Origin: Thermodesulfobacteriota bacterium
Lineage (GTDB): Bacteria; Desulfobacterota; Desulfobacteria; Desulfobacterales; Desulfobacteraceae
Direction: 5' to 3'
DNA length: 54,598 nt
Assembly: GCA_034660495.1 (NCBI GenBank)
Contig: JAYEJJ010000221.1
Coordinates: 23,549-78,146 of the forward strand
The notes under the pieces were generated by a model. It saw only the letters and a list, made by a program, of their open reading frames with translations, did no database searches and was not told the DNA's origin. The position numbers and the translations under genes were made by a program. Of this stretch, positions 35,151 through 54,034 are shown in pieces (the stretch's first letter is position 1; each line of letters begins with the position of its first letter).

Positions 35151-35537
35151 ATGGAGTTCTTTTACGCTGTTTTCACAAAAGAAGATGATACTGTTTTGGT
35201 TTCGATTCCAGATGTGGAAATCTGCGAGACCTTCGGTAAATCATGGGATGAAGCCTATGAGATGGGGGTGGATGCATTGGCCGCTTGTTTGTCAGAACCG
35301 GAAACAATCGTTCATCCAAAATCAACCCGTGAAAAACTACAGGCTGACAATCCGGAATCTGAAATTGTGCCCATTCCGGTAGATGAGTCTATCAGGAAAA
35401 AATATGCAAAAACCAAACGGTTTAATGTGATTTTCCCTGAAGATTTGTTGGTTCGGGTAGATGAGTATCGAGCCGGTGCAGGAATGAAGCGCTCTCAACT
35501 ACTGGCAGAAGCAGCGGAGCAATATTTAAAAGCATAA
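35151..35537 (+). CDS. hicB: HicB-family antitoxin with a C-terminal ribbon-helix-helix
   Basis: N-terminus FFYAVFTKEDDTVLVSIPDVEICETFGKSWDEAYEMGVDALAACL (HicB fold pattern). C-terminus KRFNVIFPEDLLVRVDEYRAGAGMKRSQLLAEAAEQYL (RHH/CopG-like). Confidence 0.8.
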   Translation: MEFFYAVFTKEDDTVLVSIPDVEICETFGKSWDEAYEMGVDALAACLSEPETIVHPKSTREKLQADNPESEIVPIPVDESIRKKYAKTKRFNVIFPEDLLVRVDEYRAGAGMKRSQLLAEAAEQYLKA

Positions 35538-36384: not shown

Positions 36385-36888
36385 ATGGAAAATTTTGCCT
36401 ATAAAATTGACGATTATATTCACAAAAAGCTGCTGCTGTACGAGGAGCTGAGTGCTGTCCTGGAGCAGGAAAAGACCTTTATCGTTGATATGGATATTAA
36501 AGCCTTGTGGCTTTCCTCGTCCAGGAAAAAACAGCTGACCCTGAAAATTGAGCAGATAAGAGACAATATGCTTTATTTTCTGGATGAAAACCAGGTGGAC
36601 CATGGCATGAATGTCAGAAATTTCAGTCTTGGCGCCCTTATCCGCATTCTTCCGGTTTCTTCAAAAATCAAATCAGACCTCAATAAAACAAGGCATGCCG
36701 TTAACCTGAAAAAAGACGAAATTCAGGTCCTGGGTAGGGAAAACAAAAAATATGTTCAGGAGTATCTCAGTGTCATAGACGGCATCATGTCAAATTTTGC
36801 AGGCCCTGCGCTCAAGGACTGCTACACGTTTTCAGGGATCATACAGTCTTTAGAAAGGGCCAGTTCCCTTATACATGCGGAGGTCTAA
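36385..36888 (+). CDS. flgN: FlgN-like export chaperone for FlgK/FlgL
   Basis: 167 aa, helical, with an N-terminal pattern LLLYEELSAVLEQEKTFIVDMDIKALWLSSSRKKQL typical of the FlgN family. Directly upstream of flgK. Confidence 0.65.
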   Translation: MENFAYKIDDYIHKKLLLYEELSAVLEQEKTFIVDMDIKALWLSSSRKKQLTLKIEQIRDNMLYFLDENQVDHGMNVRNFSLGALIRILPVSSKIKSDLNKTRHAVNLKKDEIQVLGRENKKYVQEYLSVIDGIMSNFAGPALKDCYTFSGIIQSLERASSLIHAEV

Positions 36889-36890
36889 TC

Positions 36891-39800
36891 ATGGGCGGAA
36901 TCGGTGCAACCCTTAATATTGCTAAAAGTGCCATTGCTGCCCAGCAGTATGGACTGCATGTAACGGGCAACAATATTTCCAATGTGAACAATCCTGACTA
37001 CAGTGTTCAAACGGCTGATCAGGAGAACAACACCCCGCAGAAATATGCAGGGTTTATATTTGGCACAGGCGTTTCTGTCCAGCAGATCGAGCAGAGCGTC
37101 AACCAGATGCTGGAGGACCGGCTGACAGACGAAAAGGCCAATCTTGCCGGGTTTGAAGAGGCGGAATCCTACATGAAAATTGTGGAATCCATGTTTGATG
37201 AGTCTTCTGAAACCAGTATCAATACCTTGATGACCGAGTTCTGGAATTCCTGGCACGATCTTTCCGATAATCCCAACGGGCCTTCTGAAAGGGAGGCGGT
37301 GCTGGAGACGGGAAACAACCTGGCCGCCCGGTTTAAAACAGCACAGCTTGACCTGAAACAGGTGGGCAGTGAAACCACAAGGGAGATTGATGCGGGTCTT
37401 TCCAGGGTCAATGCCCTTGCCGATGAAATTGCCGCGCTGAACAAGGAAATCACCGGATTTGAAGCATCATCAACGGCCAATGATCTGCGGGACAAGCGAA
37501 ACGGCCTTGTTGACGAGCTGGGGGATATCATCAATATCAACTCCTTTGAGCAGCCCAACGGGTACTTATCTGTCAATGTGGGCAGGGGGGCGCCTCTGGT
37601 TTATGGGGTTGAGACCAGCCGGCTTGAAATGGTGGACAAAGAGGTGGTGTGGCAGGGCACCGGCCAAAAAAGGGTGATTTCCGATGAGATCTCCGGGGGT
37701 AAAATCAAGGGGTGGCTTCAGATAAGAGACGAAGTGATTCCCAAATATCAGTCAGAGGTGGATGTCCTTGCCAAGGAGATGATCTGGGCAATCAACCTCC
37801 AGCACTCCCAGGGGGCTGGCCTTGATTATTTTTCAGACACAGTGACCGGGGCGTACCAGACCGACGACAGCGGGCTTTTGTCAAGTCTCACCTTTGGAGA
37901 CCGAATCGATTATGAGAAGTCCTTTAAGATGTGGATCAAGGATCAGTCCACTGCCGATACACAATACCAGTCCGCTGAAGTGGACATGGGCATCTCAAAA
38001 GCCGGTCTTTCCAACTGGGACGGGGTCTCTCCAGGGGGAGAACCGTCACGGTACAGACTGACAGTGGTTGACGGTACAACCGTAGGCGATTCCCTGGTAT
38101 CCGAGACCGACGGATCGGGACTTGCCACCACAATTGTTGGATCAGACACGGCAACGGCACTCAATGGCGGTATTGCCGAGCAGACCCTGACCGTCTACGG
38201 CAGTCCCGAGGGGACCAGTACCATAAAGGTCAAGGATATTGCAGGGGACTCTTTGAGGTCTGCGGCCTCTGTGGCAGAGGCGTTGTCGAAAATTGAAGGG
38301 ATAGAGGCCTATGCGTCTGAAACTTCTGTAACATTTTCAACTATAGATTCTGCCACAGGGGACTCTACCTTACCCGATGCCCATGATGGTGATGAGGTGA
38401 AGTTCTCCCTTTATGTTGACGGCTCCCTCCATGAGCTCTCCTTTGTGTTTGATTCTGACAAAGGAAGCCTGGATGATCAGCTTGAAAATGCCCTTTTATC
38501 GGGCGCAGAGCTTATAAACGAAATTAAGGGGGATGAAAACCTGACGGCCAACGGCCTGACCCTTACAAGCAGTAAGGGGTCCACCCTGGGTGCGGAACAG
38601 TTTGAAGTGGTGGATAATGCCGGGGTGCAGCTGAACAATTTTTCAGGATTCAATACCGGGGACAGTGTTACCTTTACAGTGGAGACGGATGGATCTCCCG
38701 CAAGTTCAACAGATCTTACCGTGGATTTATCCGGGGTGGATACCAGTGACGAGGCCAATGTTGCCACAGCGTTTTACGATGCATTATCTGCTGATCTGGA
38801 CAGTTCTCCTTTTTCCGTGGAAAATGATCCCTCCACCAACTCGATTTTTCTAAGAACCACCGACGGGTCCAATCTTACCCTCAGGGATGCTGACAATGAT
38901 GCAGGTGCAGGCGCCTTCATTGATGTGACGGAACTGGCAGGATCAACCCTGGGAGCCGGGAACAACATCCTTACCTTTGATGGAAGCGGTGACACGGAAA
39001 CCTTTACCGCAACCACGGCGGACACGGATACACTGGGGTTTAACAGTGGCGTGATTGCTGAAGATTCAGCCGTCGGCCCGTTTCCGGCGGGAACCGACAA
39101 GGCAGGTGTGATCACGGGAACCGTAACCACTGTCATGGATCCGGATATTTCCATCCATTCCACTGTCGCAGGTCCCGGTCCATTATACGGTGCCCTGTTT
39201 GAAGACGGATCGGCAAAGCGGGGAAGTTCCATCGCCACCCTGGGGGGAGAAGGGGGATTTTCCAACTTTACCCAGGGGGAAGCTGTCTCCTTTGATGTTG
39301 ACGGTATTTCTGTAACGTATAACATCCCTGCCGCTCCCCCCGTTCTTGGAGAGCTGGACCATGCCCAGAATATAGAAATTGCACTTACTGCCGCACTGGT
39401 TACTCCTTTTGTTGATCCCGACTACCAAATCATCAGAACGGACCGGTCTGTCTCCATACTCAAGAATACAGATCAGGATGATCCCATTGAGATCACCAAT
39501 TTCAGCGAATCAGTGACTGATGATGCCAAGCTGGCAGTGAGAACCGGTACAGGAACCGGCACGGCCGAGCCGGGAAACGATCTTCTCGAGGCGGGCAGCA
39601 GTCTCAGGGATTTTTCCACTGCCACCCTGTACAGCGATGACGGGGTGATCAAGTGGGAGCGGCTGAACAGAGATGGGTTTTCAACGGGAAGCAATGGGTT
39701 TGTAACGGTTTCCGATGACGGCAATGTCACCATTGACGAGACCGGAGGCTCCATCTCCTTTGATATTGCAAAAGGCTCCCTTGTGGCGGGCAATACCCTG

Positions 39801-41165
39801 ACGGTGAATACCGACGACTCAGGCCAGCCCGATCCCCTGAATTTCAGAGTAAGGGGCGCTGGAAACAGCATCATGGACACCTATCACTTTACCGTGGTTG
39901 AGGGGGGAAAGGTGGGCCATGTGCCCGGAGAAGATGAAGCGCCCCTGACCATAAAATGGGAAAGCAGCACCTCCTATGGAGAGTTTGTTATGGAAGGGGA
40001 AGATCCTCCGATTACCCCGGATATTCCTGTTGAAGTGGAAGTGGACGGCATGGACCTGGTGTTCAGCAGCGGCACCCTGCTCAAGGATGATGTGTTTACC
40101 ATCACAACCGATGAGGCAGGGTATCCGGTTTCTGAAAATGACAGCGGCATGCCCACCGGAGAAACCCTTTCCGACTGGCACTGGACGGCCGCCTCTTTTG
40201 CCGATCAGTTTAACCGGCAGGCAGGAGGGGTGAAAGCCTCCACGACCCTGGACAATCGACTGAGGTTTGAACAGGATACCGACTACCACGCCATCACCAA
40301 TATTGAATTTTCCAATGAGCAGGTGAGCCAAAACAGCGGATTCAGCCCGGCAAACACCACAATAGAGATAACCAACCATGCCGCATTTACCTTTGAGGCC
40401 CGGGATCTCAAGTTCCAGCGCACCACCAATGCCAGCGGCACCAATGTATGGCAGGTGTTGAACGATCCAACCGGCGGAAACATCAGAATCATACCCGAAG
40501 GGGGAAACGACAGCGGGTTTGGCGTTGATCTCACCAGAGACGGGGTGGCAGACATGGAGATCCGTTTTGAAAAAGAGATCTCCGGCAACGGGTTCGTTGA
40601 AATGGATTTTGTCCACAAAAGCGGGAAGGACATCAGCTTTGCCTTTTCCGATGATGGGTCAAACGCATCGGGTATTATGGCCGCGGCCGGCATCAATACC
40701 TTTTTTACAGGAGAGGATGCCGTTACCATGGAAGTGAACCAGACCCTGAACAACACAGATATGATTGCAGCGGCCACCATTGACAGTGACACCGGGGAGA
40801 TCAGCCAGGGGGACAACAGCAATGCCCTGGCCCTGGCCGATATTCAGTTTGAGAGCAGAACCATGAAAAAATGGACCTTTTCCAGGGGCCAGGATGCGGA
40901 TTCCAGTGTTACCATCGCCACCCTTGATGAGTACTACGGTACCATGATAGGATACATGGGCCTCACCCTGAGAAGCATAGAAAATTCCGGGACGTCAGCA
41001 GGGTTAATGGTTACCTCCATCACAGAAAAAAGAGATGCGATTTCTGCCGTCTCCCTGGATGAAGAGATGATTAATCTGATGAAGTACCAGCACGCCTTTT
41101 CAGCGGCATCCAAGCTGATAAGTGTCTCCGATGAGATGCTGAATACACTTATAAGTGTCAGGTAA
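36891..41165 (+). CDS. flgK: Hook-associated protein 1 FlgK, giant (1424 aa)
   Basis: N-terminus GIGATLNIAKSAIAAQQYGLHVTGNNISNVNNPDYS. C-terminus SLDEEMINLMKYQHAFSAASKLISVSDEMLNTLISVR. Confidence 0.95.
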   Translation: MGGIGATLNIAKSAIAAQQYGLHVTGNNISNVNNPDYSVQTADQENNTPQKYAGFIFGTGVSVQQIEQSVNQMLEDRLTDEKANLAGFEEAESYMKIVESMFDESSETSINTLMTEFWNSWHDLSDNPNGPSEREAVLETGNNLAARFKTAQLDLKQVGSETTREIDAGLSRVNALADEIAALNKEITGFEASSTANDLRDKRNGLVDELGDIININSFEQPNGYLSVNVGRGAPLVYGVETSRLEMVDKEVVWQGTGQKRVISDEISGGKIKGWLQIRDEVIPKYQSEVDVLAKEMIWAINLQHSQGAGLDYFSDTVTGAYQTDDSGLLSSLTFGDRIDYEKSFKMWIKDQSTADTQYQSAEVDMGISKAGLSNWDGVSPGGEPSRYRLTVVDGTTVGDSLVSETDGSGLATTIVGSDTATALNGGIAEQTLTVYGSPEGTSTIKVKDIAGDSLRSAASVAEALSKIEGIEAYASETSVTFSTIDSATGDSTLPDAHDGDEVKFSLYVDGSLHELSFVFDSDKGSLDDQLENALLSGAELINEIKGDENLTANGLTLTSSKGSTLGAEQFEVVDNAGVQLNNFSGFNTGDSVTFTVETDGSPASSTDLTVDLSGVDTSDEANVATAFYDALSADLDSSPFSVENDPSTNSIFLRTTDGSNLTLRDADNDAGAGAFIDVTELAGSTLGAGNNILTFDGSGDTETFTATTADTDTLGFNSGVIAEDSAVGPFPAGTDKAGVITGTVTTVMDPDISIHSTVAGPGPLYGALFEDGSAKRGSSIATLGGEGGFSNFTQGEAVSFDVDGISVTYNIPAAPPVLGELDHAQNIEIALTAALVTPFVDPDYQIIRTDRSVSILKNTDQDDPIEITNFSESVTDDAKLAVRTGTGTGTAEPGNDLLEAGSSLRDFSTATLYSDDGVIKWERLNRDGFSTGSNGFVTVSDDGNVTIDETGGSISFDIAKGSLVAGNTLTVNTDDSGQPDPLNFRVRGAGNSIMDTYHFTVVEGGKVGHVPGEDEAPLTIKWESSTSYGEFVMEGEDPPITPDIPVEVEVDGMDLVFSSGTLLKDDVFTITTDEAGYPVSENDSGMPTGETLSDWHWTAASFADQFNRQAGGVKASTTLDNRLRFEQDTDYHAITNIEFSNEQVSQNSGFSPANTTIEITNHAAFTFEARDLKFQRTTNASGTNVWQVLNDPTGGNIRIIPEGGNDSGFGVDLTRDGVADMEIRFEKEISGNGFVEMDFVHKSGKDISFAFSDDGSNASGIMAAAGINTFFTGEDAVTMEVNQTLNNTDMIAAATIDSDTGEISQGDNSNALALADIQFESRTMKKWTFSRGQDADSSVTIATLDEYYGTMIGYMGLTLRSIENSGTSAGLMVTSITEKRDAISAVSLDEEMINLMKYQHAFSAASKLISVSDEMLNTLISVR

Positions 41166-41249
41166 TGCCCGCTTTGTTCATGGGGATCGGTTTGATGGGA
41201 TATGACCGGTGCCGTTTATGGCTGGCCACAGGTAATATGCGAGGTTACA

Positions 41250-44200
41250 ATGAGAGTTCCAAATATTACACTTTATGATACATCACGCTACCAGCTTGGG
41301 AAGCTAACCTCCAGGCTCAAGGATGCCAATGAGGTTGTAAGCTCTGAAAAGCAGATCAACAGTATGTCCGACGATCCAGTGGGATTAACCCAGGTGGTGG
41401 CCCTGAAAACATCTGTAAAAAACCTGGAACAGATAGAGAGAAATGTCCAGATGGGCAAAACCTGGCTCACCTGCAGTGAAGATGCCCTGGACAGCATCAA
41501 CACCCTTATCCTGAATGCCAGGGCAGAGGCCAGCCGCCTGGTCAACGCATCTGCCACGGCAGACGAGCGCAAGGATGCTGTTCAGCGGATTGACAATATA
41601 CTTGAACAGATTGTCTCCCTTGGCAATACAAAGGTGGGCGGAAGCTATATATTCAGTGGCACAGACTCGGATACCCAGCCCTTTGTTTACCATAAAGATA
41701 CCATTCCCCCCCATGTTTCCTATGAGGGAGACAGTTCGGCTTTTTCCATAAAAACGGACAGTGATACCGAAGTCGAGGTGGGCAGCAGCGGCAGCCGGGT
41801 GTTCAAGGATGATGAGGTGGTGATCAACTCCACCAATAACACCATTGTATTTAAAGAGGATAACGGCCACGGCACAGCGTCGGAAAGGACCATGACCGCA
41901 GTGGTGCCGGATGGTGAATATACACCGGAAAAACTGGAAACCCTGGTAAGAAATGCCTTAAACCAGGCATCGGGCGAGTCCGGGTACGGGGTAACCTATG
42001 ATGTGAATTACGACGCTGATGAAGAGAAATTTTCCATACAATCCGACGGCAGTTACAGCGGATATGTGAGAACGGCATTTCTCTGGGACACTGGTGATGA
42101 GCCGTATCTTAACGGGTATAACACCTCTTCCGGCATTGATCCGGATGATCTGGAGATTGATTTGAAAAATAGATCGGCCCTTACCATTGGTACGCCGGAA
42201 CCGGCAGGCAGTGATCCCGTGAAGCTCATATGGGATGGGGAGGGAAACTGGATTGTGGAAAACAACCCGGGGTATGTCATGCCGGCAAAGGTGGAAGGCA
42301 CCCATTACGGCGTGGACCTGGACCTTACCGAATCCGGAGTTGCTGATATCTCTGTTAAACTGGATCACCCCGTGGAAAAGGCCGGGGATTACATTGAGTT
42401 TGATATCATACCTGAAAAAGGGGATCACAGCATCGGCCATGAGATCGGATTTCCAGACAACAATGTGATTACAACAACACCCGTGTCAGACCGCAGCGCC
42501 GCTTTTGTGACGGACATTGAGATCACAGCCGGGGTCAACGACTATATCGACTTTAAGGAGAGGATGTCTGACTCCATTATCGCCGCCGGCACGGTCCTGG
42601 ATGCAGATTATGAGATAACCGGTGATACGGCTGTTTCCAGCGGCACCATTGCCGCCGGATCGGTTCTCGGCTCGGGATCAACCATTGTCTCCGGTACCAC
42701 CCTGGGTGCGGGAACGGTGATTGGTTCCGGCATCACCCTTTCTCCTGATATTGAACTTGCCAGGGATGTCACCCAAGTCTCTTCCGGTACCCTGATCAGC
42801 GGGTCGCTGTTGGCAGCGGGTACTGTTCTGGGATCGGGTACCGTTCTCGGCATGGGCACCACCATCGGCTCGGGCACGGTTGTGGGCTCAGGCACGGTTT
42901 TAACGGCGGATGTCATCCTGGGCGCTGCTGTGGCCGGTGCTGACGGCGGCACCATGACAAGCGGGTCGGTTCTAACGTCCGGCACTGTTCTGGGGGCAGG
43001 TACGGTTATTGCGTCTGGCACCACCATCGGCTCAGGTACTCTACTGACCGGGGATTTCCTTGTGGATTCAGATATAACAGCCGCCATGGGGGGTGTTTTA
43101 TCCGCCAACTCCTTTGTGGCTTCCGGGTCCACCCTGGTGTCCGGTACAGTGCTTGCCAGTGACGAGTCCATCTCCATTGCCGCTTCCGGGGTCTCGGGTA
43201 CGGTTACAGGCGACGGGACCAGCACCCTGGCCCAGCTGGCCATGGGGTCTCCTCCCCTTGGCGCGGCCGGCAGTTATACGGTTGTATCCGGGGGCGACAC
43301 CCTGAGCCACGGCATCACCACCCTGGCCAGCGGTTCCATCCTGGCCTTTGGCACCAGTTCCGGCCTGGTGGCTGCCGGATCATCCTTTACCGGAACTTCT
43401 GTTACAACGGCTTCCGGATCTGCTCTGGATACCGCCATGACCCTGCAGGGGGGGGATATGGGTTTAACGGCTGACACCACGGTAATGGCCGGCACCACCC
43501 TGGCCTCCGGCACTACCCTGTCTTCCGGTTCTGTTGTGGATAACAAGGGGATTACCAATTCAGATGCTGTTGTCACCCTGAACGGGAATATGACCTTAAA
43601 GGGGACCACCACCCTTAACGGTGCCGCTGCAAACAATGAACTCACCGGTAATGTCGCGCTTAGGGCAGGGACCACCCTGGGTGCCGGCTCCACTTTGATA
43701 AGCGGTTCTTCAGTGGACAACCAGGCCGTTACCATCAATAACGGTATTGTTTTAACTTCCGATATGGCGGTCACAGGAAGCACCGGGGTCTCCCCGGGAA
43801 CTGATATGACCGTCCTTCCTGGCACCGTGATTGCCAAAGACTCCATCCTGGAGCAGGGCTCCGTTGTGAACAGTGATTTGCCCATTGATGCCGATCAAAC
43901 CATTGCGGCTGGAACGGTGTTTCCTGCTGATTTTGGCATCACCTCGGATATAACCGTTACCAGCGGTGTCCTGGCCAGCGGCACCCTGTTTGAGGCCGGG
44001 TCGGTTATTCGTGCCGGCACTGTGCTGGGGGCCGGATCTGTCATCGGGGCCGGTGAAACCCTCACATCGGATGTACAGGCGGCCTCCGATATCAGGATCA
44101 TCAACTCAGGCACATTAAATGTCGGCTCCTTTCTCTCCTCGGGCTCCACCCTGGTGTCCGGTACGGTTCTGGGGATAGGGGAGCAGATCGACTTTGTCAC

Positions 44201-46337
44201 CAGCGGCGGCGCTTCGGGCACCCTGTCTGGAAATGGTGTGTTGACCCTGGGGGAACTTGCCTCGGGAACCGCCATGGACGGCGCCGGTGTGTTTATGGTA
44301 AACGGCGATGACACCTTAAGCCACGGAATTACAACCCTTGCCAGTGGGTCAACTCTCTCTTTTGGCACGGGGTCCGGGGTGATCACCAGCGGTTCGGTTC
44401 TGGCAGGATCTGAGATCACCATCTCCTCGGGCACCACCCTGAACGGTGACATGAATCTTGTTAAAGACGGTGTGGAGCTCGGAACCACTATATCAGGACC
44501 GCCCGGGTCCCTTATCCCGGGGACAACCCTGACGGCAGGCTCCATCATCGGCAAGGGATCACAGATCAACAACACCATGGTCACCACAGGAGGGGTCAGT
44601 GCCGAGCTGACCGCCAGGATTACAGCCGGTACCTATAGCGATATGGATGCCCTGGCAGAAGAGATAGAAACCCAGCTGGAAAAGGAGAGCGCCAATAATA
44701 TCGACTATGCCGTCTCCTATGATGGGGAGACCAGCCGGTTCAATATCCGGGAGAACGGGTCAACCCTCGATGGATTTGACATGCTCTGGAAAACAGGCAG
44801 CCACGCAGGTACCAGTGTCGGTGACATCCTTGGGTTTTACACCATTGATGACACGGTTGAATACCCGGAAAGTGACAATGCGCCGGTGAGAAGCGCCATC
44901 ACCATAGATGACTCCAATGATATCCTGGATTTTGAGGAGATTGACGGTTCCGGCACTGCCAGCGGCACCTTGTCGGCATTCATATCCCACGGGACCTATA
45001 CCTCCATGGATGACCTGACAAGTGAGATCGAGTCAAGCATGGAGGCGGTCTCTGCCGGGACCATTGATTATGATGTCTCCTATGACAATGCAGGAACGCC
45101 TCCGGGATTTGTGATTCAGGGGAATGCCGGCGGTGGGAATGAGCTGCTTCTCTTCAATGACCGGCCTGTCAACTCCATTGGCGATACCCTGGGGTTTGAA
45201 ACGGCAAAGTCCGGATATACCGGGTACAAAAGCGATGAAGCCCCGGCGCTTATCACTTTCGGCTCAGACAACAATGCGGTTGATTTTGCTGAAACCGGTG
45301 TGGACGGTGTTGTGTCAGACCCCGTTAGTTTTGACATTCCAGAGGGACCTTACACCTCCCTGGATGATGTGGCCCAGTCCATGGAAGCAGGGCTGAAGCA
45401 GGCCTCCCCCAACAATGTGGTCTATGAAGTGGCCTATGATTACGGTGAGGGAAAATTCACCGTCAAGGGCAGCAGTGAAGCGATCACCTCATTTTCCCTG
45501 TTGTGGCATTCAGGAGAGAATGGTGATAAAAGTGCCGCCTCTCTGCTGGGATTTGACATAAATTCCGATGATGTTATGGTGTTTTCAGAAAGTGATGAGG
45601 ATATTGTCAATATTAATATTGATACAACCAACAACAAGATAGATTTCCAGGAGATCACAGCCGATGAAGAGGGCAATGAGCATACCATTAACCTGACCGC
45701 CTCGGTTGAATCGGGGAACTACACTTCCCACAACGATCTGGCATCTGCCGTGGAAAACGCCATGGAAAAGAGATCCCTGGAAAAGGGGAACCGGATCGAC
45801 TACTCTGTCTCCTATGACGGGTATACAAAAAAGTTTACCATAAAAGAGGCAGGTACTGAGCTTGACGGATTTGGTCTAACCTGGGGGACAGGCGATAACC
45901 GTCCCGTCCTTGAGGGGGGCACAGGGGAAACCATTGGGGAGATCCTCGGGTTTGACGCATATGATGATATGGACACCCCGGTTGAAAGTTCAGAAACGGT
46001 TGAGTGGAGTATATTTAACACCCTGCTGGATTTTAAAACCCACCTGGAAGAGAATGATCCCGACGGCATTGAAAGAATCCTTAACCGGCTTGAAACCCAT
46101 TTTGACAAGACAACGTCGCATATTGTTAATACCGGCATGCGCTACAGCCGCCTGGATGTGCGGGAGCGGTTGACCACAGAGGTGAATTTAAGCTTGACAG
46201 AACGGCGCTCAATGATAGAAGATGCAGATCTGATAAAGGCTGTAATGGATCTCAAGGCTGTGGAAAATGCGTATAAGGCCTCGCTGAGTTCCACGTCAAA
46301 GGTGATCAACATCAGCCTGGTGGATTACCTGAGGTAA
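41250..46337 (+). CDS. flgL: Hook-associated protein 3 FlgL, giant (~1695 aa)
   Basis: Flagellin-type N-terminal domain (MRVPNITLYDTSRYQLGKLTSRL...INSMSDDPVGLTQVVALK...) and C-terminal domain (MRYSRLDVRERLTTEVNLSLTERRSMIEDADLIKAVMDLKAVENAYKASL). ATG 41250 follows gcgagg; the track start at 41202 is less likely. Confidence 0.9.
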   Translation: MRVPNITLYDTSRYQLGKLTSRLKDANEVVSSEKQINSMSDDPVGLTQVVALKTSVKNLEQIERNVQMGKTWLTCSEDALDSINTLILNARAEASRLVNASATADERKDAVQRIDNILEQIVSLGNTKVGGSYIFSGTDSDTQPFVYHKDTIPPHVSYEGDSSAFSIKTDSDTEVEVGSSGSRVFKDDEVVINSTNNTIVFKEDNGHGTASERTMTAVVPDGEYTPEKLETLVRNALNQASGESGYGVTYDVNYDADEEKFSIQSDGSYSGYVRTAFLWDTGDEPYLNGYNTSSGIDPDDLEIDLKNRSALTIGTPEPAGSDPVKLIWDGEGNWIVENNPGYVMPAKVEGTHYGVDLDLTESGVADISVKLDHPVEKAGDYIEFDIIPEKGDHSIGHEIGFPDNNVITTTPVSDRSAAFVTDIEITAGVNDYIDFKERMSDSIIAAGTVLDADYEITGDTAVSSGTIAAGSVLGSGSTIVSGTTLGAGTVIGSGITLSPDIELARDVTQVSSGTLISGSLLAAGTVLGSGTVLGMGTTIGSGTVVGSGTVLTADVILGAAVAGADGGTMTSGSVLTSGTVLGAGTVIASGTTIGSGTLLTGDFLVDSDITAAMGGVLSANSFVASGSTLVSGTVLASDESISIAASGVSGTVTGDGTSTLAQLAMGSPPLGAAGSYTVVSGGDTLSHGITTLASGSILAFGTSSGLVAAGSSFTGTSVTTASGSALDTAMTLQGGDMGLTADTTVMAGTTLASGTTLSSGSVVDNKGITNSDAVVTLNGNMTLKGTTTLNGAAANNELTGNVALRAGTTLGAGSTLISGSSVDNQAVTINNGIVLTSDMAVTGSTGVSPGTDMTVLPGTVIAKDSILEQGSVVNSDLPIDADQTIAAGTVFPADFGITSDITVTSGVLASGTLFEAGSVIRAGTVLGAGSVIGAGETLTSDVQAASDIRIINSGTLNVGSFLSSGSTLVSGTVLGIGEQIDFVTSGGASGTLSGNGVLTLGELASGTAMDGAGVFMVNGDDTLSHGITTLASGSTLSFGTGSGVITSGSVLAGSEITISSGTTLNGDMNLVKDGVELGTTISGPPGSLIPGTTLTAGSIIGKGSQINNTMVTTGGVSAELTARITAGTYSDMDALAEEIETQLEKESANNIDYAVSYDGETSRFNIRENGSTLDGFDMLWKTGSHAGTSVGDILGFYTIDDTVEYPESDNAPVRSAITIDDSNDILDFEEIDGSGTASGTLSAFISHGTYTSMDDLTSEIESSMEAVSAGTIDYDVSYDNAGTPPGFVIQGNAGGGNELLLFNDRPVNSIGDTLGFETAKSGYTGYKSDEAPALITFGSDNNAVDFAETGVDGVVSDPVSFDIPEGPYTSLDDVAQSMEAGLKQASPNNVVYEVAYDYGEGKFTVKGSSEAITSFSLLWHSGENGDKSAASLLGFDINSDDVMVFSESDEDIVNINIDTTNNKIDFQEITADEEGNEHTINLTASVESGNYTSHNDLASAVENAMEKRSLEKGNRIDYSVSYDGYTKKFTIKEAGTELDGFGLTWGTGDNRPVLEGGTGETIGEILGFDAYDDMDTPVESSETVEWSIFNTLLDFKTHLEENDPDGIERILNRLETHFDKTTSHIVNTGMRYSRLDVRERLTTEVNLSLTERRSMIEDADLIKAVMDLKAVENAYKASLSSTSKVINISLVDYLR

Positions 46338-50953: not shown

Positions 50954-51070
50954 GGTGTATGTCCTCTTTACTGGTTCCAGGGGAATATTCAACAGCAACG
51001 AAATGCTGGTTTGTCTTCCCGGTTAATTCCCCCTGTGATGTAAAAATAGATGGGGTTCTCTCACCCTTAA

Positions 51071-51098
51071 ATATCGGTCACATCGATAAAAAACTGAA
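51071..51098 (-). promoter_or_regulatory. Weak sigma-28 promoter candidate for fliD
   Basis: The minus strand reads TTCAGTTT-N12-ACCGATAT, ~115 nt upstream of the fliD ATG. The spacer is one nt longer than consensus and the -10 matches 6/8. Confidence 0.3.
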
Positions 51099-51292
51099 GC
51101 AAAAAATGCGCCGGCCTGATCAAGCCATCTTCATCAGGTCCGCTAAAAAGGATGTCTTTTGTTGCAGATGCTGCTGGGGGGTAAAAAACACCGCCCCGGC
51201 AGAATATGCCGGACATGGTTGTTCATTTCTCACCATAAAGTCTTGATGACTGTGGTGCCCCCATGTCGTCCCACCATGCTCTGCATTTTTTA

Positions 51293-51321
51293 TTGACAAT
51301 GGTATAAAATGGGATAATAAT
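51293..51321 (+). promoter_or_regulatory. Sigma-70-type promoter with an overlapping palindromic operator candidate (TA module)
   Basis: TTGACA-N17-AATAAT. The -10 lies inside the ataataatgatattat inverted repeat, ~35 nt upstream of ATG 51356. Confidence 0.4.
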
Positions 51322-51514
51322 GATATTATATCTCAACAAGAAGTGGAGGGTAATCATGGAAATACAACGAATGGCCCATGCACAAATATCCATTCCTGCT
51401 GACAGCCTGGAGCTGATAACAGCTCTTGTTGTCAAGCTGGGAGGGTAGGTATTGAACGATTTTTATCCTGATTTATCCTGCGATCCGGCGTCTGAGATCA
51501 GGCGGGGAGGGAAA

Positions 51515-51787
51515 ATGCTAAAAGAACTTCGCCATCGGGCAGATCTCACACAGAAAGAAGTAGCAAGCGTCCTTGGAATACCCCAGAGCCATATTTCAGA
51601 ATTTGAGAGGGATAAACGCAATATCCCCTATAAACATGCCCAAAAGCTTGCTGCATTATTGCATACAATTCCGAGTCATTTCATGAAGCCGAATAATGAA
51701 ACCTGTGAGGCGATGGCTGAGCTGGGAGAAGGTAAAGGACAGCGTTTCGTATCCGCAGAAAAATTGTTCGAGGGCCTGGGAATATAG
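51515..51787 (+). CDS. XRE-family HTH antitoxin-like protein. It is the downstream part of a longer frame (51356-51787) interrupted by a TAG at 51446.
   Basis: HTH pattern LRHRADLTQKEVASVLGIPQSHISEFERDKRNIPYKHAQKLAALL. GGGGAGGG RBS before ATG 51515. An upstream in-frame segment MEIQRMAHAQISIPADSLELITALVVKLGG has its own GGAGGG RBS. Confidence 0.6.
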   Translation: MLKELRHRADLTQKEVASVLGIPQSHISEFERDKRNIPYKHAQKLAALLHTIPSHFMKPNNETCEAMAELGEGKGQRFVSAEKLFEGLGI

Positions 51788-51790
51788 TGC

Positions 51791-52067
51791 ATGCTGACAC
51801 CGGTAGAGTCATCAAAATTTAGCAAAGATGTAAAGCGGATGAAAAAACGAGGCAAAGACATGGAGAAGCTAAAATCTCTGGTGACTCTTTTGATCGATGA
51901 GGACGGACCCCCTGCCTGAAACTTATCATGCCCATCCGCTAAAGGGCAATTGGCTGCCGTTTTGGGATGCACATATAGAGCCCGACTGGCTTCTCATTTA
52001 CAGTCAGCAAGAAGGAGAGCTTCTTTTGGCAAGAACCGGAACCCATGCCGATATATTTGCTTCATAA
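51791..52067 (+). pseudogene. Frameshifted YafQ/RelE-family toxin
   Basis: Frame 1: MLTPVESSKFSKDVKRMKKRGKDMEKLKSLVTLLIDEDGPPA*. The shifted frame continues LPETYHAHPLKGNWLPFWDAHIEPDWLLIYSQQEGELLLARTGTHADIF. The break lies at the C5 run near 51912. Confidence 0.6.
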
Positions 52068-52069
52068 GC

Positions 52070-52392
52070 AGATTTGAGCTTTATGACCTGAACCGGTTCT
52101 CGGATGATCAGATAAAGGGGACGATCCTCAATCGGATTGCCCTGCTGCTGCTCAAGTACATTTTCTCACCAGAGCTGCGGCACAAGTTGCCGAAAATTTT
52201 TATTCCCTGTTGCGGACGCTGATGGAAAAGGAAACCGGGCTGCAGTATCTGGAGACAGTGATCCGGTACCTGGCATCGGTGCTGGATGAGTTGTCATTGA
52301 AAGAAATAAAGGAGATGGCCGAGCAGGCCATCTCCAAAGATACGGGAGGAGATGATAGGCGAGGTGGAAAGTTTAAAAAAAATGAAGTAAAA
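52070..52392 (+). pseudogene. Fragment of an Rpn/YhgA-like PD-(D/E)XK nuclease (putative transposase) gene, frameshifted
   Basis: FELYDLNRFSDDQIKGTILNRIALLLLKYIFSPELRHKLPKIF then, after a frame change, LRTLMEKETGLQYLETVIRYLASVLDELSLKEIKEMAEQAIS. This resembles the central/C-terminal region of that family. No N-terminal nuclease part is present. Confidence 0.5.
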
Positions 52393-52496
52393 GGCATCCT
52401 TCATATCCTCACAAAAGTAGTTTACACTTTTTGGGGAACGCTCCTGAAAAAAGGAGCTTGGCTTCAGAAAGTGTAAAGTAGTCGTGAAGGATGCCC
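52393..52496. repeat. Long asymmetric palindrome (P3), copy 2
   Basis: Arms ggcatccttcatatcctcacaaaagtagtttacacttttt / cagaaagtgtaaagtagtcgtgaaggatgccc. Confidence 0.8.
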
Positions 52497-52932
52497 TTTT
52501 TCTCGTGCAATTGGTTTTGCATGTTTTTATTAAAAAGCCTGAACAACGGCCACGACCCGTTTTTTAATGCTCCTGCTGTAAAACCCCTATGGTGATTCTG
52601 GGATTCCGGCAAGCTTCATGGAACCCCGGATAGCTTTTTTAAACGGCGAAAGCTGCAGTTCATCTGAATGATGGAGGTGAAAGTTTTATGATACAATCAG
52701 GGGAGAATAACCTGTTTCCAGATCGCTGGACCCGTGCGCCCTGAAAAAGGACATTTTTTCAAAGTATGCTCCCCGCCGTTATTGAAAAAAAAGATATTTC
52801 CTTTATAATAAGACACTCCGGGCTTGTCCAACCAAACGGATAAGATTGTGGTTCGTTCCTTACACAATCTATCCTTATTCGTTGTACAATTGAACAGATT
52901 GAAATGCCAACTATCAATGAGGAGTTACGTTT

Positions 52933-53199
52933 ATGTCTAATCATAGTGGTAGTTATATGCTAAACGATGTACTCAGGATGCTTGAAAAGAAAGAGATTTT
53001 TGATTTTCTAGGCAAAGAAAAAACACAGGATTTGGTTCTTAACGTACTTAAAATGTCATATCAATATGATTGCAATCCAGGAGAAATATTGGAAGATATT
53101 GGAGAACGTGTTGGAATATGCTATTACTGCCAAAGTCCAGCGGAAAAGTTCCATGATGGGATATGTGAAAAATGTTACAAAAAGGATTTTGAAGGATAG
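52933..53199 (+). CDS. Hypothetical small protein with a C-terminal CxxC...CxxC zinc-ribbon-like motif
   Basis: GAGGAG RBS. ICYYCQSPAEKFHDGICEKCY. AT-rich local context. Confidence 0.5.
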   Translation: MSNHSGSYMLNDVLRMLEKKEIFDFLGKEKTQDLVLNVLKMSYQYDCNPGEILEDIGERVGICYYCQSPAEKFHDGICEKCYKKDFEG

Positions 53200-53345
53200 A
53201 TTGCCTAACCGGCTACTCCGCTACCGTTACGGAATTACGTGGAAATATTTATAAACTGCTGGATGAAGTGCTGAATTCCGGAGTCCCACTAGAAGAGAAG
53301 GCCTGCGTATTTAAGGAAGCCCCTGAGTTTTTAGCTCAGGGGTAA
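53193..53345 (+). pseudogene. Start-less fragment resembling the N-terminus of a Phd/YefM-type antitoxin
   Basis: TVTELRGNIYKLLDEVLNSGVPLE matches the ELR-NLY-LLDEV-TGEPLEI pattern and then diverges. There is no start codon in frame. Confidence 0.35.
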
Positions 53346-53386
53346 TTGACCTTAAGGACCTTAGGCAGCAAGTGAAAATAACTTAC

Positions 53387-53496
53387 GAGTGTACCCTTTT
53401 TTGATTATGCGGATTGAATTGTTGCCATGAAACCTCACCCCCCGGCCCCCTCTCCATGATTGGAGAGGGGGAGAATAATTCAAAAAGGGTACACTC
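53387..53496. repeat. Nested palindrome
   Basis: Outer arms gagtgtacccttttttga / ttcaaaaagggtacactc. Inner hairpin ccccctctccatgattggagaggggg. Confidence 0.8.
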
Positions 53497-53550
53497 ATTA
53501 AGGATACCTTTTGTTCATTTAAGTGATTTACCTGTGCTGGAGACTATACT

Positions 53551-53757
53551 GTGTCTTTTTTTGCCAAAGATTATTACAGCAACTCAGCGGTTTTCAGTGC
53601 CATTACGGTAACAGCACAGGGCAAAGATGCGTGCGTTGAAGTTGAGCCTGTTCCGGATAATGAAACGGCAACTACTGTTCCTTCAAGGTTTGATTGTCGG
53701 GCTTATGTTTTCCCTTTTTCCATTGATCAAAAGATGATCAATAATGATGAGTTATAA
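53551..53757 (+). CDS. Hypothetical protein (68 aa)
   Basis: GTG start 7 nt after GGAGA. No recognisable family. Confidence 0.3.
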   Translation: MSFFAKDYYSNSAVFSAITVTAQGKDACVEVEPVPDNETATTVPSRFDCRAYVFPFSIDQKMINNDEL

Positions 53758-53791
53758 CAACCCGATGACTTAACCTTGAACAAGCACTTCT

Positions 53792-54034
53792 TTAATTCTC
53801 ATTTTTTTTCTTTTTTTCAAGAAAACTCTCGATTTCTTTTATTGAAAGTCCACTGAGCCTCTCTTCTAGTTTAAGTCCACTGAGCCTCTCTTCTGGTTTA
53901 AGCCCGCTGAGCCTTTTTTCCGGCTCAAACTTTGATAAAATATCTTCCGGCTCAAACTTTGATAGAATATCTTCCGGACTAAAGCGCTTAATTACATCAT
54001 CCACTTTAAGACTTGCCATAAAAAACTCATGCAT
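53792..54034 (-). pseudogene. C-terminal fragment of an Rpn/YhgA-like (DUF4351-type tail) gene
   Basis: The tandem PEDILSKFE / PEERLSGLK repeats and SIKEIESFLEK ending are typical of that family's C-terminus. The ORF begins immediately beside P3 copy 3. Confidence 0.45.

What the first reader, a model, noticed from the sequence alone, without database searches (positions are those of the whole stretch)
41250..46337. FlgL of ~1695 aa with hexapeptide-periodic tracts, a large internal duplication and five repeated modules
FlgL is normally ~300 aa (Salmonella 317, memory). Here the flagellin-like N- and C-terminal helices enclose three unusual features. First, long Gly/Ser/Thr tracts have strict 6-residue periodicity G-x-x-[LIV]-x-x (for example GSVLGSGSTIVSGTTLGAGTVIGSGITL and GSGTVLGMGTTIGSGTVVGSGTVL), reminiscent of left-handed beta-helix hexapeptide repeats. 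Second, two paralogous blocks lie at ~42585-43460 and ~43905-44480, sharing stretches such as SGSTLVSGTVL...GDDTLSHGITTLASGS. Third, there are five ~85-aa modules of the form TA-I--GTY-S-DDLA-EIE--M------IDY-VSYD----KF-I-------(D)GF-L-W--G------G-ILGF, at ~41885-42100, 44605-44850, 44950-45200, 45310-45560 and 45670-45960. I am not aware of a junction protein with this architecture.
Basis: partly seen in the sequence, partly recalled or inferred. Interest (0 to 1): 0.7.

Follow-up and report, generated by a model that had tools for sequence, protein, structure and literature searches.

The report
Giant FlgL with flagellin-like beta-helix insert
This is a genuine hook-filament junction gene (flgL) five times the usual size: five tandem surface modules shared by about 100 Desulfobacteraceae relatives, plus a rare 670-residue hexapeptide-repeat domain, inserted in a loop of module 2, that most resembles the outer domain of the same lineage's giant flagellins.

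Summary
All three observations hold. The ORF (start 41250, GAGG ribosome-binding site) encodes a 1695-aa FlgL: TIGR02550 scores 214.6 bits against a cutoff of 127.2, in flgN-flgK-flgL-csrA-fliW synteny.

The architecture is nested. Five homologous modules of about 115-135 aa (27-41% identity) lie between the D0/D1 helices. M1 carries a 100-aa domain "X" in one loop. M2 carries a 670-aa hexapeptide-repeat insertion (aa 442-1111) in another.

The five-module scaffold is not unique. About 95 Desulfobacteraceae FlgLs of about 1025 aa have it, and NCBI names them FlgL. The insertion occurs only in the window and three metagenomic orthologues (54-70% identity). It is as conserved as the core and has almost no indels. 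It contains an old internal duplication (46% aa, 56% DNA identity), so it is not an assembly artefact.

By sequence it is LbH-class (Pfam Hexapep 60 bits). AlphaFold2 was inconclusive, and no His is invariant, which argues against an enzyme.

Its best non-self matches among 1.84 billion proteins are giant flagellins with hexapeptide middles. The neighbouring flagellin on a sister contig has the same repeat.

Most likely this is a structural junction protein whose outer layer matches the filament's. It is a new variant of a known kind.

The parts
41250..46337 (+). flgL coding sequence, 1695 aa plus stop. The mechanical ORF starts at 41202.
   Evidence: GAGG 6 nt upstream of the ATG at 41250, and homologues start MRVPNI. 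TIGR02550 scores 214.6 bits against a cutoff of 127.2.
41250..41810 (+). N-terminal D0/D1 helical region (aa 1-187).
   Evidence: Pfam Flagellin_N covers aa 15-138. TIGR02550 covers aa 2-209. PDB FlgL chains 5yti, 5ziy, 7c7z, 9go6_L and 2d4x match aa 20-205.
41811..42500 (+). Module M1 (aa 188-417), interrupted by domain X.
   Evidence: Spliced-module alignment. Module HMM hits at 189-285 and 389-416. AlphaFold2 pLDDT is about 90-97.
42117..42416 (+). Domain X (aa 290-389). It is an all-beta domain nested in the LWxTG...SxGxxLGF loop of M1 and is homologous to FlgK aa 1144-1245.
   Evidence: hhalign gives probability 96.2% and E 2.2e-9 against FlgK.
42507..42572 (+). M2 N-terminal hairpin (aa 420-441, ..IEITAGVNDYIDFKE..).
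   Evidence: Alignment to FlgLs without the insert. pLDDT is 74-97 in AlphaFold2 job 1.
42573..44582 (+). 670-aa hexapeptide-repeat insertion (aa 442-1111) in the M2 loop. It is absent from the FlgLs of about 1025 aa.
   Evidence: insertion point. (Hexapep hit and periodicity). (similarity to flagellin middles). (59-71% identity to orthologues with 5-9 gaps).
42648..43172 (+). Longest single-phase hexapeptide tract (aa 467-641, 27 hexads).
   Evidence: The best Pfam Hexapep stretch is aa 524-555. PglD and DapH PDB chains align to aa 392-565.
42888..43445 (+). Duplicated block A (aa 547-732).
   Evidence: 46% aa and 56% DNA identity to block B.
43908..44459 (+). Duplicated block B (aa 887-1070).
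44583..44891 (+). M2 C-terminal part (aa 1112-1214).
   Evidence: AlphaFold2 pLDDT is 87-98, with strand-strand-helix-strand-strand-strand secondary structure.
44892..45245 (+). Module M3 (aa 1215-1332).
45246..45602 (+). Module M4 (aa 1333-1451).
45603..46004 (+). Module M5 (aa 1452-1585).
46005..46334 (+). C-terminal D1/D0 helical region (aa 1586-1695).
   Evidence: Second TIGR02550 stretch. Matches the C-terminus (661-750) of PDB chain 9gsx_A, E 0.0026. Homologues carry Pfam Flagellin_C.
36891..41165 (+). flgK, 1424 aa, immediately upstream. It shares domain X with FlgL.
   Evidence: FlgK_D1 scores 186.7 bits and TIGR02492 scores 326.6 bits.
36385..36888 (+). flgN-like chaperone gene.
   Evidence: Pfam FlgN scores 27.6 bits, below the cutoff of 30.5. 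The syntenic gene in L002 carries a precomputed PF05130 (FlgN) hit, and L001 has a 167-aa ORF at the same position.

Best explanation
The gene encodes the distal hook-filament junction protein FlgL (HAP3) of a Desulfobacteraceae-like bacterium.

Its conserved terminal helices (aa 1-187 and 1586-1695) build the junction ring that sits directly under the first flagellins. This is inferred from the Salmonella and Campylobacter junction structures.

The roughly 1400 residues in between are surface-exposed outer domains arranged as nested insertions. Five tandem alpha/beta modules form a family-wide scaffold. Domain X sits in a loop of module 1. A 670-residue hexapeptide-repeat domain, probably beta-helical, sits in a loop of module 2.

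The hexapeptide domain is the same kind of domain that forms the outer region of this lineage's giant flagellins. My inference is that it is structural, not enzymatic. It would give the eleven FlgL subunits an outer layer matching that of the filament, so that the thick outer coat continues across, or is seeded at, the junction.

Shown: the identity as FlgL, the architecture, the insertion point, conservation, and similarity to flagellin middles. Inferred: the beta-helix fold, surface exposure, and the matching or templating role.
For: Identity. TIGR02550 scores 214.6 bits against a cutoff of 127.2 in two stretches, with Flagellin_N. PDB FlgL chains match the N-terminus. The C-terminus matches the end of PDB chain 9gsx_A, a 750-aa chain that I take to be the C. 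jejuni FlgL. Synteny flgN-flgK-flgL-csrA-fliW, with fliS and fliD on the other strand, holds in the window, L001 and L002.

Architecture. FlgLs of about 1025 aa equal window aa 1-441 plus 1112-1695. The spliced modules align at 27-41% identity. The module HMM hits all 99 family members and no flagellin, FlgK, FlgE or FliD. The modules and X are predicted with pLDDT above 90.

The insertion is a constrained, folded unit. It is 59% identical to P0003, compared with 55-58% for the D0/D1 ends. There are only 5-9 gapped positions in 670 aa across orthologues at 55-71% identity. dN is 0.22 with dS saturated.

Hexapeptide class. Hexapep scores 60 bits, the periodicity z-score is about 9, and 81 of the top 150 exhaustive hits are proteins of 320 aa or less; the five of these that were scanned against Pfam were four hexapeptide proteins, one of them with a PglD N-terminal domain, and one with no hit.

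Flagellin link. In the word-indexed search, 115 of the 120 listed hits carry the Flagellin_N domain and 117 Flagellin_C. In the exhaustive search of 1.84 billion representatives, the best non-self hit is a 1328-aa flagellin at 105.8 bits, and 5 of the top 10 non-self hits are flagellins. Pairwise scores of 95-113 bits compare with 47-65 +/- 8 for shuffles in 18-residue blocks. On sister contig L002, the flagellin next to fliD has the same 6-residue periodicity and aligns to the insertion at 27-29% identity.

Not an enzyme. Neither of the two His residues in the insert is conserved among the four orthologues. All acyltransferase models score far below their cutoffs.
Against: The left-handed beta-helix fold is not shown. 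AlphaFold2 gave pLDDT 40-70 for the insert, and Foldseek found no LbH protein; the weak top hits were right-handed autotransporter helices at E 0.8.

Similarity to flagellin middles is only about 30% identity with many gaps in a repetitive, compositionally biased sequence. It may reflect a shared repeat type rather than descent. Giant non-flagellar hexapeptide proteins (P0224, P0227, P0229) are interleaved among the top hits.

Most relatives with hexapeptide flagellins manage with an FlgL that lacks the insert, for example Desulfospira joergensenii and Desulfobotulus alkaliphilus. Matching is therefore not required.

There are no expression, localisation or imaging data. The window's own flagellin is not in the window.
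Confidence: 0.6

Rival explanations
1. The hexapeptide insert is a catalytic LbH acyl- or acetyltransferase, or a gamma-carbonic-anhydrase-like module, displayed on the flagellum. It would be analogous to enzymatic flagellins such as flagellinolysin, for example modifying glycans or substrates near the junction.
For: The sequence hits are to enzymes: PglD 4m98 at E 2.7e-6, DapH 3r8y, LpxA 3r0s, gamma-carbonic anhydrases and GlmU. There are partial NeuD/PglB/VioB and LpxD matches. Many proteins of acetyltransferase size (320 aa or less) appear in the exhaustive search, and four of the five that were scanned carry Pfam Hexapep.
Against: Every enzyme model is far below its cutoff, for example NeuD_NnaD at 49.8 bits against 160.8. 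The hits cover only the generic repeat (aa 440-610). There is no substrate-binding N-domain. Only two His residues lie in the 670 aa and neither is conserved in all four orthologues. The composition is Gly/Thr/Ser-dominated. LbH enzymes need trimer interfaces, which do not fit 11-fold helical packing; this last point is inference.
Confidence: 0.07
2. The giant size is an artefact. Either repeats were mis-assembled, or the gene is a pseudogene or fusion that is not made full length.
For: The gene is repetitive and comes from a metagenome-type contig. One orthologous contig (L003, P0004) has flgL and flgK broken by frameshifts.
Against: Three independent assemblies give intact, collinear ORFs of 1685-1695 aa in the same synteny: the window, L001 (GenBank JAYEHB010000369) and L002 (ENA ERZ27316399). 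Internal repeats are only 56-85% identical at the DNA level. There are almost no indels between orthologues, and dN is far below dS. The L003 contig name suggests a long-read assembly, and both of its flagellar genes are broken, which points to indel errors.
Confidence: 0.04
3. The outer domains, including the hexapeptide insert, are an environment-facing decoration unrelated to the filament's outer layer. They could be an adhesin, a glycosylation carrier, an antigenic or phage decoy, or a collar interacting with the cell surface. The resemblance to flagellin middles would be convergence on a Ser/Thr/Gly-rich solenoid that passes easily through the type III export channel.
For: The hexapeptide solenoid recurs in unrelated settings. 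These include small FlgLs of Ca. Epulonipiscium (P0228) and P0233, flagellins of several phyla, and giant non-flagellar proteins with TSP_3 or Ig domains. Identity to flagellins is low. Close relatives with hexapeptide flagellins lack the FlgL insert.
Against: Real alignments score well above block-shuffled controls. Flagellins are heavily over-represented at the top of an unbiased search, even though LbH enzymes are very common. No adhesin or lectin domain was detected.
Confidence: 0.25

Closest known systems
Canonical FlgL / HAP3 (Salmonella FlgL, 317 aa, PDB 9GO6 chain L; Bacillus, Xanthomonas and Legionella FlgL crystal structures, PMC6155364; native junction, PMC12221982)
   Same: The N- and C-terminal D0/D1 helices are homologous, the gene sits after flgK, and the TIGR02550 equivalog model is passed. 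It presumably forms the same 11-subunit distal junction layer.
   Different: It is more than five times longer. About 1400 aa of outer domains occupy the place where Salmonella has almost nothing and Xanthomonas has one small beta D2. Foldseek matches of M1+X to X. campestris FlgL and Salmonella FlgK are weak (TM about 0.2).
Large epsilonproteobacterial FlgL (C. jejuni, 750 aa, 'bulky D2', PMC12221982; NCBIfam models PRK14692 with 749 positions and PRK08412 with 827 positions)
   Same: Both are FlgLs with a big outer domain in a lineage whose hook and FlgK are also enlarged. The C-terminus aligns to 9gsx_A.
   Different: Only the termini match (36-73 bits against cutoffs of 749-878). The outer domains are unrelated. 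The window protein is more than twice as long and is modular.
Desulfobacteraceae FlgLs of about 1025 aa (e.g. Desulfobacula phenolica P0048, Desulfospira joergensenii P0084, Desulfobotulus alkaliphilus P0099; named FlgL by NCBI)
   Same: They share the D0/D1 ends, the same five modules and the same domain X, at 44-57% identity over the shared parts. This is the family the window protein belongs to.
   Different: They lack the 670-aa hexapeptide insertion, so the M2 loop is a few residues long. Other enlarged relatives (1268-1653 aa) show no Hexapep hit and have long unmatched stretches between their modules, which I did not characterise.
Giant flagellins and flagellin outer-domain diversity (PMC6248924; PMC11532411; PMC8931119)
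   Same: In both, an axial flagellar protein keeps its helical core and acquires very large, lineage-specific surface domains. The window insert's best matches are flagellin middles with hexapeptide repeats (P0223, P0103, P0104, P0123, P0174).
   Different: The window protein is the junction protein, not the filament subunit. PMC6248924 explicitly filtered FlgL out. I found no mention of hexapeptide or beta-helix outer domains in these papers.
Hexapeptide-repeat (LbH) acyltransferases and gamma-carbonic anhydrases (PglD 4M98, DapH 3R8Y, LpxA 3R0S, GlmU 5VMK)
   Same: They share the [LIV]-G-x-G-[ST]-x six-residue periodicity. Pfam Hexapep is above its cutoff.
   Different: There is no conserved catalytic His, no substrate domain, and enzyme-family cutoffs are not met. 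The run is about 10 times longer than in the enzymes. The trimeric assembly and left-handed fold are not shown.
Small FlgLs with a hexapeptide middle (Ca. Epulonipiscium fishelsonii OON96111.1, 662 aa; P0233, 551 aa)
   Same: Both pass TIGR02550 (141 and 199 bits) and have hexapeptide repeats between the D1 helices. The FlgL-plus-hexapeptide combination has therefore arisen elsewhere.
   Different: They have no five-module scaffold. The repeat sits directly in the D1 hairpin position, not inside a module loop. At least P0228 comes from an unrelated phylum (a Firmicute; the source of P0233 is unknown). Similarity to the window insert is only 54-59 bits.

Membership tests
FlgL / HAP3 (NCBIfam TIGR02550) | Whole-protein score above the curated equivalog cutoff. 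| tested here: met
   214.6 bits against a cutoff of 127.2, in two stretches.
FlgL / HAP3 (NCBIfam TIGR02550) | Flagellin-like N-terminal D0/D1 helices. | tested here: met
   Flagellin_N scores 41.1 bits against a cutoff of 26.6. PDB FlgL chains 5yti, 5ziy, 7c7z, 9go6_L and 2d4x match aa 20-205.
FlgL / HAP3 (NCBIfam TIGR02550) | C-terminal D1/D0 helices. | tested here: met
   Second TIGR02550 stretch. The last 115 aa match the C-terminus of 9gsx_A at E 0.0026. Orthologues carry Flagellin_C.
FlgL / HAP3 (NCBIfam TIGR02550) | Gene immediately downstream of flgK in a late flagellar operon with flgN. | tested here: met
   The order flgN-flgK-flgL-csrA-fliW is found in the window, L001 and L002.
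FlgL / HAP3 (NCBIfam TIGR02550) | Forms the distal 11-subunit layer of the hook-filament junction. | not testable with these tools
   This needs cryo-EM or cryo-ET, or immunolabelling.
Flagellin (FliC/FlaA) | Best match and above-cutoff score to flagellin models, with Flagellin_C. | tested here: not met
   The best flagellin model, NF006489, scores 48.5 bits against a cutoff of 217. FlgL models rank first. No Flagellin_C hit at E<0.01.
Hexapeptide-repeat / left-handed beta-helix superfamily (Pfam PF00132) | Imperfect tandem [LIV]-[GAED]-x2-[STAV]-x hexapeptides. | tested here: met
   Hexapep scores 60 bits against a cutoff of 27. Lag-6 autocorrelation is 0.35 against a shuffle sd of 0.038. One tract has 27 in-phase hexads.
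Hexapeptide-repeat / left-handed beta-helix superfamily (Pfam PF00132) | Left-handed parallel beta-helix fold with 18 residues per turn. | tested here: inconclusive
   The AlphaFold2 model shows 2-residue strands every 6 residues, but pLDDT is 40-73. Foldseek against the PDB found no LbH match.
LbH acyltransferases (NeuD/PglD, LpxA/LpxD, DapH, GlmU) | Family-level score, conserved catalytic His, and an acceptor or CoA-binding context. | tested here: not met
   NeuD_NnaD scores 49.8 bits against 160.8 and LpxD scores 28.2 against 207. Neither His687 nor His1025 is conserved in all four orthologues.
Flagellin_IN motif (Pfam PF07196), as proposed for the five modules | A match to the PF07196 profile. 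| tested here: not met
   No hit in the whole protein at E<0.01. No hit in any of 26 modules at E<1. The hexapeptide flagellins do carry it.
DUF3383 / Pbunavirus-type phage tail-sheath protein (Pfam PF11863), for the modules | An above-cutoff profile match and a shared fold. | tested here: not met
   13 of 26 modules give weak hits (best E 4.8e-6, about 18 bits against a cutoff of 34.9) to profile positions of about 132-170. The PDB sheath protein gp31 (8env) matches at E 0.022. Foldseek against the PDB and BFVD returned no sheath protein. This is at most a remote resemblance.

The most novel reading that the evidence does not exclude
In this lineage the junction protein has acquired the filament's own kind of outer domain. 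The eleven FlgL hexapeptide beta-helices would form the first turn of the thick outer coat and template, or mechanically anchor, the outer-domain lattice of the hexapeptide-flagellin filament. FlgK and FlgL would be tied together on the outside through their shared domain X. That would make outer-layer continuity across hook, junction and filament a selected property. It would also make the hexapeptide solenoid a recurrent, undescribed class of flagellar surface domain, seen in flagellins of Desulfobacterota and Sulfurospirillum and in FlgLs of Desulfobacteraceae and Epulopiscium.
Probability: 0.3. Interest if true: 0.7.

Novelty: new variant of a known kind. Interest (0 to 1): 0.55.

Why it matters
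Junction proteins are usually treated as small, conserved adaptors. Here FlgL is five times the normal size, FlgK is 1424 aa and FlgE is 940 aa, so the whole extracellular axis is thickened.

The nested design is a clean natural example of how flagellar surface domains are added without disturbing the assembly core. Tandem modules serve as an insertion-tolerant scaffold, with whole domains dropped into their loops.

The hexapeptide-repeat outer domain appears to be undescribed in the literature I could search. It occurs in hundreds of giant flagellins and, rarely, in FlgL.

If the junction and filament outer layers really match, that would bear on how ordered outer-domain lattices start at the base of a filament. 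This question is open after the recent native junction structures. It can be tested by cryo-EM in cultivable relatives such as Desulfospira and Desulfobacula, which already have the five-module FlgL and hexapeptide flagellins.

Tried and rejected
1. BLASTP of the whole protein against itself returned only the identity hit. I replaced it with 100-aa fragment queries.

2. AlphaFold2 of aa 415-1235 with a 99-sequence alignment gave confident modules but a low-confidence insert (mean pLDDT 57.8). Foldseek against the PDB gave nothing significant.

3. Foldseek of the confident M1+X model (pLDDT 82.7) against the PDB and BFVD gave only low-TM hits of 0.33 or less. These were PBCV-1 and EsV-1 capsid-associated proteins, mavirus and adenovirus penton jelly rolls, FlgK 2d4y at E 0.02, and X. 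campestris FlgL. I assign no fold family.

4. The search for homologous proteins with the 4-sequence module alignment returned nothing, not even the known family members. That result is uninformative. I assessed module distribution only within the proteins already fetched.

5. The genome-contig scan found only one related locus, L001. The window's own species is apparently not among the representative genomes.

6. dN/dS: dS is saturated or undefined between the window and L001. Only the qualitative conclusion that dN is far below dS is usable.

7. Modules as Flagellin_IN: rejected.

8. Modules as DUF3383 sheath domain: weak sequence hints, no structural support.

9. Insert as a recent copy of the cognate flagellin: rejected. 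Identity to the neighbouring flagellin in L002 is only 27-29%.

10. Literature searches for giant FlgL, hexapeptide or beta-helix flagellin domains, and Desulfobacteraceae flagella found no description.
Full report

The window has one uninterrupted ORF at 41202..46337 on the + strand. All homologues begin MRVPNI.. and a GAGG lies six bases upstream of the ATG at 41250. All protein numbering below starts at nt 41250.

- *FlgL identity.* NCBIfam's FlgL equivalog model TIGR02550 scores 214.6 bits against a cutoff of 127.2, in two stretches. Pfam finds Flagellin_N.
- *Hexapeptide periodicity.* It is strong in aa 440-1120. Lag-6 autocorrelation of aliphatic residues is 0.354 and of Gly 0.201. In 1000 shuffles the sd was 0.038 and the maximum 0.127-0.144. 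One tract keeps a single phase for 175 residues, aa 467-641. In all, 478 of the 670 inserted residues lie in periodic tracts.
- *Duplication.* It is real and old. aa 547-732 against 887-1070 gives 46% protein identity and 56% DNA identity.
- *Modules.* The five modules are real.
- *Not an assembly artefact.* DNA repeats within the gene are short and only 60-85% identical.

**2. Anatomy: a nested architecture**

I compared the protein with its homologues. About 95 FlgLs from Desulfobacteraceae are 1011-1161 aa long. They include Desulfobacula, Desulfospira, Desulfobacter and Desulfobotulus, and many are already named FlgL by NCBI. They are collinear with window residues 1-441 and 1112-1695 at 44-57% identity.

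- *Insertion point.* Residues 442-1111 sit in what is otherwise a loop of a few residues. In the window the sequence runs ..IDFKE-[670 aa]-GGVSAELTARITAGTYSDMDAL... In P0011 it runs ..IDFIEKSPLS-GGTSAELTAVITAGNYTDMDAL...
- *Module structure.* Each module starts with an I-x-I-x4-N-x-I-D-F-x-E hairpin. It continues through TA-I--G-Y-S-DDLA--IE, IDY-VSYD, F-I and LW-TG, and ends at S-G--LGF----SD.
- *Nested domains.* Module 1 is interrupted as well. A domain of about 100 aa, 'X' (aa 290-389), sits between LWDTG and SIGHEIGF. When both inserts are spliced out, the five modules (115-135 aa) align end to end at 27-41% identity.
- *Distribution of the module.* An HMM of the module hits every one of the 99 family members. 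It finds five modules, or six in forms of about 1150 aa. It hits no flagellin, FlgK, FlgE or FliD that I fetched.

The resulting layout is: D0/D1-N (1-187), then M1[X], then M2[hexapeptide domain], then M3, M4, M5, then D1/D0-C (1586-1695).

**3. Who else has the insertion?**

Only three other sequences among 5.8 billion clusters have it:

| Sequence | Length | Identity | Source |
|---|---|---|---|
| P0002 (= GenBank MEA1968365.1, named FlgL) | 1688 aa | 70% | Thermodesulfobacteriota MAG, locus L001 |
| P0003 | 1685 aa | 57% | ENA metagenome, L002 |
| P0004 | 1533 aa | 54% | L003, a contig with frameshifts in both flgK and flgL |

- L001 and L002 have the same synteny, including a FlgK of 1417-1419 aa.
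- The insert is as well conserved as the assembly core. Against P0003 it is 59% identical, compared with 55-58% for the D0/D1 ends.
- There are only 5-9 gapped positions in 670 residues. That is unexpected for a disordered or freely slipping repeat and argues for a folded, length-constrained domain.
- dN is 0.22 and dS is saturated.
- Both duplicated blocks are present in the full-length collinear alignments with P0002 and P0003, so the duplication probably predates their divergence.

**4. What is the insert?**

By sequence it is a canonical hexapeptide repeat of the form L-G-x-G-[ST]-x.
- Pfam Hexapep scores 60 bits against a cutoff of 27.
- PDB sequence hits include PglD, DapH, LpxA, gamma-carbonic anhydrases and GlmU.
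- Eighty-one of the top 150 hits in an exhaustive phmmer search of 1.84 billion representatives are proteins of 320 aa or less. The five of these that I scanned were four Pfam hexapeptide proteins, one of them with a PglD N-terminal domain, and one with no hit.

Evidence against an enzyme:
- No enzyme family cutoff is approached.
- The insert has only two His residues, and neither is conserved among the four orthologues.

Structure prediction did not settle the fold. AlphaFold2 on aa 415-1235 gave pLDDT above 90 for the module parts but 40-73 for the insert. The insert showed two-residue strands every six residues. Foldseek found no LbH structure.

**5. The link to flagellins**

- *Word-indexed search.* I searched with the insert alone. 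Of the 120 best hits, 115 carry the Flagellin_N domain and 117 Flagellin_C. They are giant flagellins of about 510-1160 aa, most of them 750 aa or longer. Those that carry a source name are from Desulfobacteraceae, Desulfobacter, Desulfospira, Desulfobotulus, Desulfamplus, Desulfurivibrio, Sulfurospirillum, Thermodesulfatator and a Nitrospinota MAG. Most have a middle annotated with Hexapep or LbH models, or both.
- *Exhaustive search.* That search is biased by word content, so I repeated it exhaustively. The best non-self hit is again a flagellin (P0223, 1328 aa, 105.8 bits). Five of the ten best non-self hits are flagellins. They are interleaved with giant hexapeptide-only proteins of unknown function.
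- *Shuffle controls.* Pairwise alignments run 500-680 residues at about 30% identity and 95-113 bits. Residue shuffles score 10 +/- 9 bits, 6-residue block shuffles 24-35 +/- 5, and 18-residue block shuffles 47-65 +/- 8. The similarity therefore exceeds composition and bare periodicity.
- *Sister contig L002.* The gene next to fliD is a flagellin. Its middle has the same 6-residue periodicity (lag-6 0.40) and aligns to the insert at 27-29% identity.

The lineage's filament therefore carries this kind of domain. The FlgL insert is the same kind, but it is not a recent copy.

Relatives with insert-less FlgL also have hexapeptide flagellins, apparently on the same contigs (matching contig lengths). 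Examples are Desulfospira joergensenii (P0084 and P0174) and Desulfobotulus alkaliphilus (P0099 and P0171).

**6. Modules and domain X**

- AlphaFold2 on aa 150-445 gave a mean pLDDT of 82.7. Each module is a small alpha/beta unit: hairpin, strands, one long helix, then three or four strands. X is all-beta.
- Foldseek against the PDB and BFVD found no convincing neighbour (TM 0.33 or less).
- The modules are not Flagellin_IN.
- Half of 26 modules give sub-threshold hits to DUF3383, a phage tail-sheath family. A module profile hits sheath protein gp31 (8env) at E 0.022. There is no structural support, so I treat this only as a remote resemblance.
- Domain X is homologous to FlgK aa 1144-1245 (hhalign probability 96.2%, E 2.2e-9).

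**7. Mechanism**

Established knowledge of the junction comes from PMC12221982. Eleven FlgL subunits form the distal layer. Their D0/D1 helices line the channel and the first flagellins stack on top. C. jejuni FlgL has a bulky D2 domain that affects the cap.

From this I infer that the window protein's termini do the conserved job and the roughly 1400 intervening residues project outward. I think the insert is most likely structural. It would give FlgL an outer layer of the same kind as the filament's, continuing or seeding the thick coat across the junction.

This is inference, and it has a clear weakness. Most relatives with hexapeptide flagellins do without the insert.

Rivals:
- A decoration with an environment-facing role and convergent resemblance to flagellins (0.25).
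- An enzymatic LbH module (0.07).
- An artefact or pseudogene (0.04).

**8. Novelty**

- FlgL identity and enlarged outer domains are known themes (Campylobacter and Helicobacter FlgL, giant flagellins).
- Public databases already hold and name the relatives, including the 1688-aa orthologue.
- Small FlgLs with hexapeptide middles exist in Ca. Epulonipiscium fishelsonii (P0228, 662 aa) and in P0233 (551 aa).
- I found no paper describing giant FlgLs, the five-module scaffold, or hexapeptide outer domains in flagellins or FlgL. The giant-flagellin survey explicitly removed FlgL.

I therefore rate this a new variant of a known kind. It is of moderate to good interest, mainly for three reasons: the nested-insertion architecture, the undescribed hexapeptide class of flagellar outer domain, and the testable idea of outer-layer matching at the junction.

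Noticed in passing
window 36891-41165 (FlgK); X-like segment at about 40320-40625: FlgK is also giant, at 1424 aa (1419 and 1417 aa in L001 and L002). Its aa 1144-1245 is homologous to FlgL domain X (hhalign probability 96.2%, E 2.2e-9). The two junction proteins therefore share an outer domain. FlgK has no FlgL-type modules and no hexapeptide repeats.
   Followed up: partly
window 3020-5842: The hook protein FlgE is 940 aa, about twice the Salmonella size. The hook, both junction proteins and, in relatives, the flagellin are all enlarged.
   Followed up: no
window 21804-23459 and 23681-26800: Two large PKD/Ig-repeat proteins (551 and 1039 aa) are encoded in the middle of the flagellar gene cluster. 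It is unknown whether they have any flagellar role.
   Followed up: no
window 17112-19085; 17-1813; 20055-21284: One ORF encodes a 657-aa protein with only a weak C-terminal FliL match (23.5 bits against a cutoff of 24.6). Two separate ORFs carry the FliK hook-length-control domain (598 and 409 aa).
   Followed up: no
window 35151-35537 and 51000-54598: A HicB-like antitoxin gene sits between the flgJ-like gene and flgN. Beyond fliD the window has only small ORFs (one reads like a helix-turn-helix protein; not tested) and no flagellin. In L002 a hexapeptide flagellin lies directly upstream of fliD.
   Followed up: partly
window 38000-46000: GC content rises to 0.51-0.56 across flgK and flgL, against about 0.46 elsewhere. 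This is plausibly due to Gly/Ala/Thr-rich coding rather than foreign origin. Not tested.
   Followed up: no
L003 1-6542 (contig ERZ22147072 ctg20286l): In this orthologous contig both flgK (433 + 53 aa) and flgL (166 + 1533 aa) are split into pieces. This is probably long-read indel error, but a decaying locus is not excluded.
   Followed up: no
P0228 (Ca. Epulonipiscium fishelsonii OON96111.1, 662 aa) and P0233 (551 aa): These are FlgL proteins from at least one unrelated lineage. They pass TIGR02550 (141 and 199 bits). Their whole middle is a G-T-x-[LIV]-P-x-type hexapeptide repeat. P0228 is annotated 'hypothetical protein'.
   Followed up: partly
P0224, P0227, P0229, P0236, P0243, P0225 (1100-2700 aa): These are giant non-flagellar proteins. 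Five of them (P0224, P0227, P0229, P0236, P0243) consist largely of hexapeptide repeats, with Hexapep scores of 175-214 bits, and P0243 also has TSP_3 and Ig domains. P0225 (2664 aa) has no Pfam hit at all. They rank among the insert's best matches. Their function and relation to the flagellar domains are unknown.
   Followed up: no
P0094-P0097 and P0093 (FlgLs of 1268-1653 aa): Other enlarged Desulfobacteraceae FlgLs keep the modules but have long stretches between them that neither the module HMM nor Pfam matches, for example P0097 aa 532-920 and 1033-1298. This suggests the module scaffold has been expanded repeatedly.
   Followed up: no
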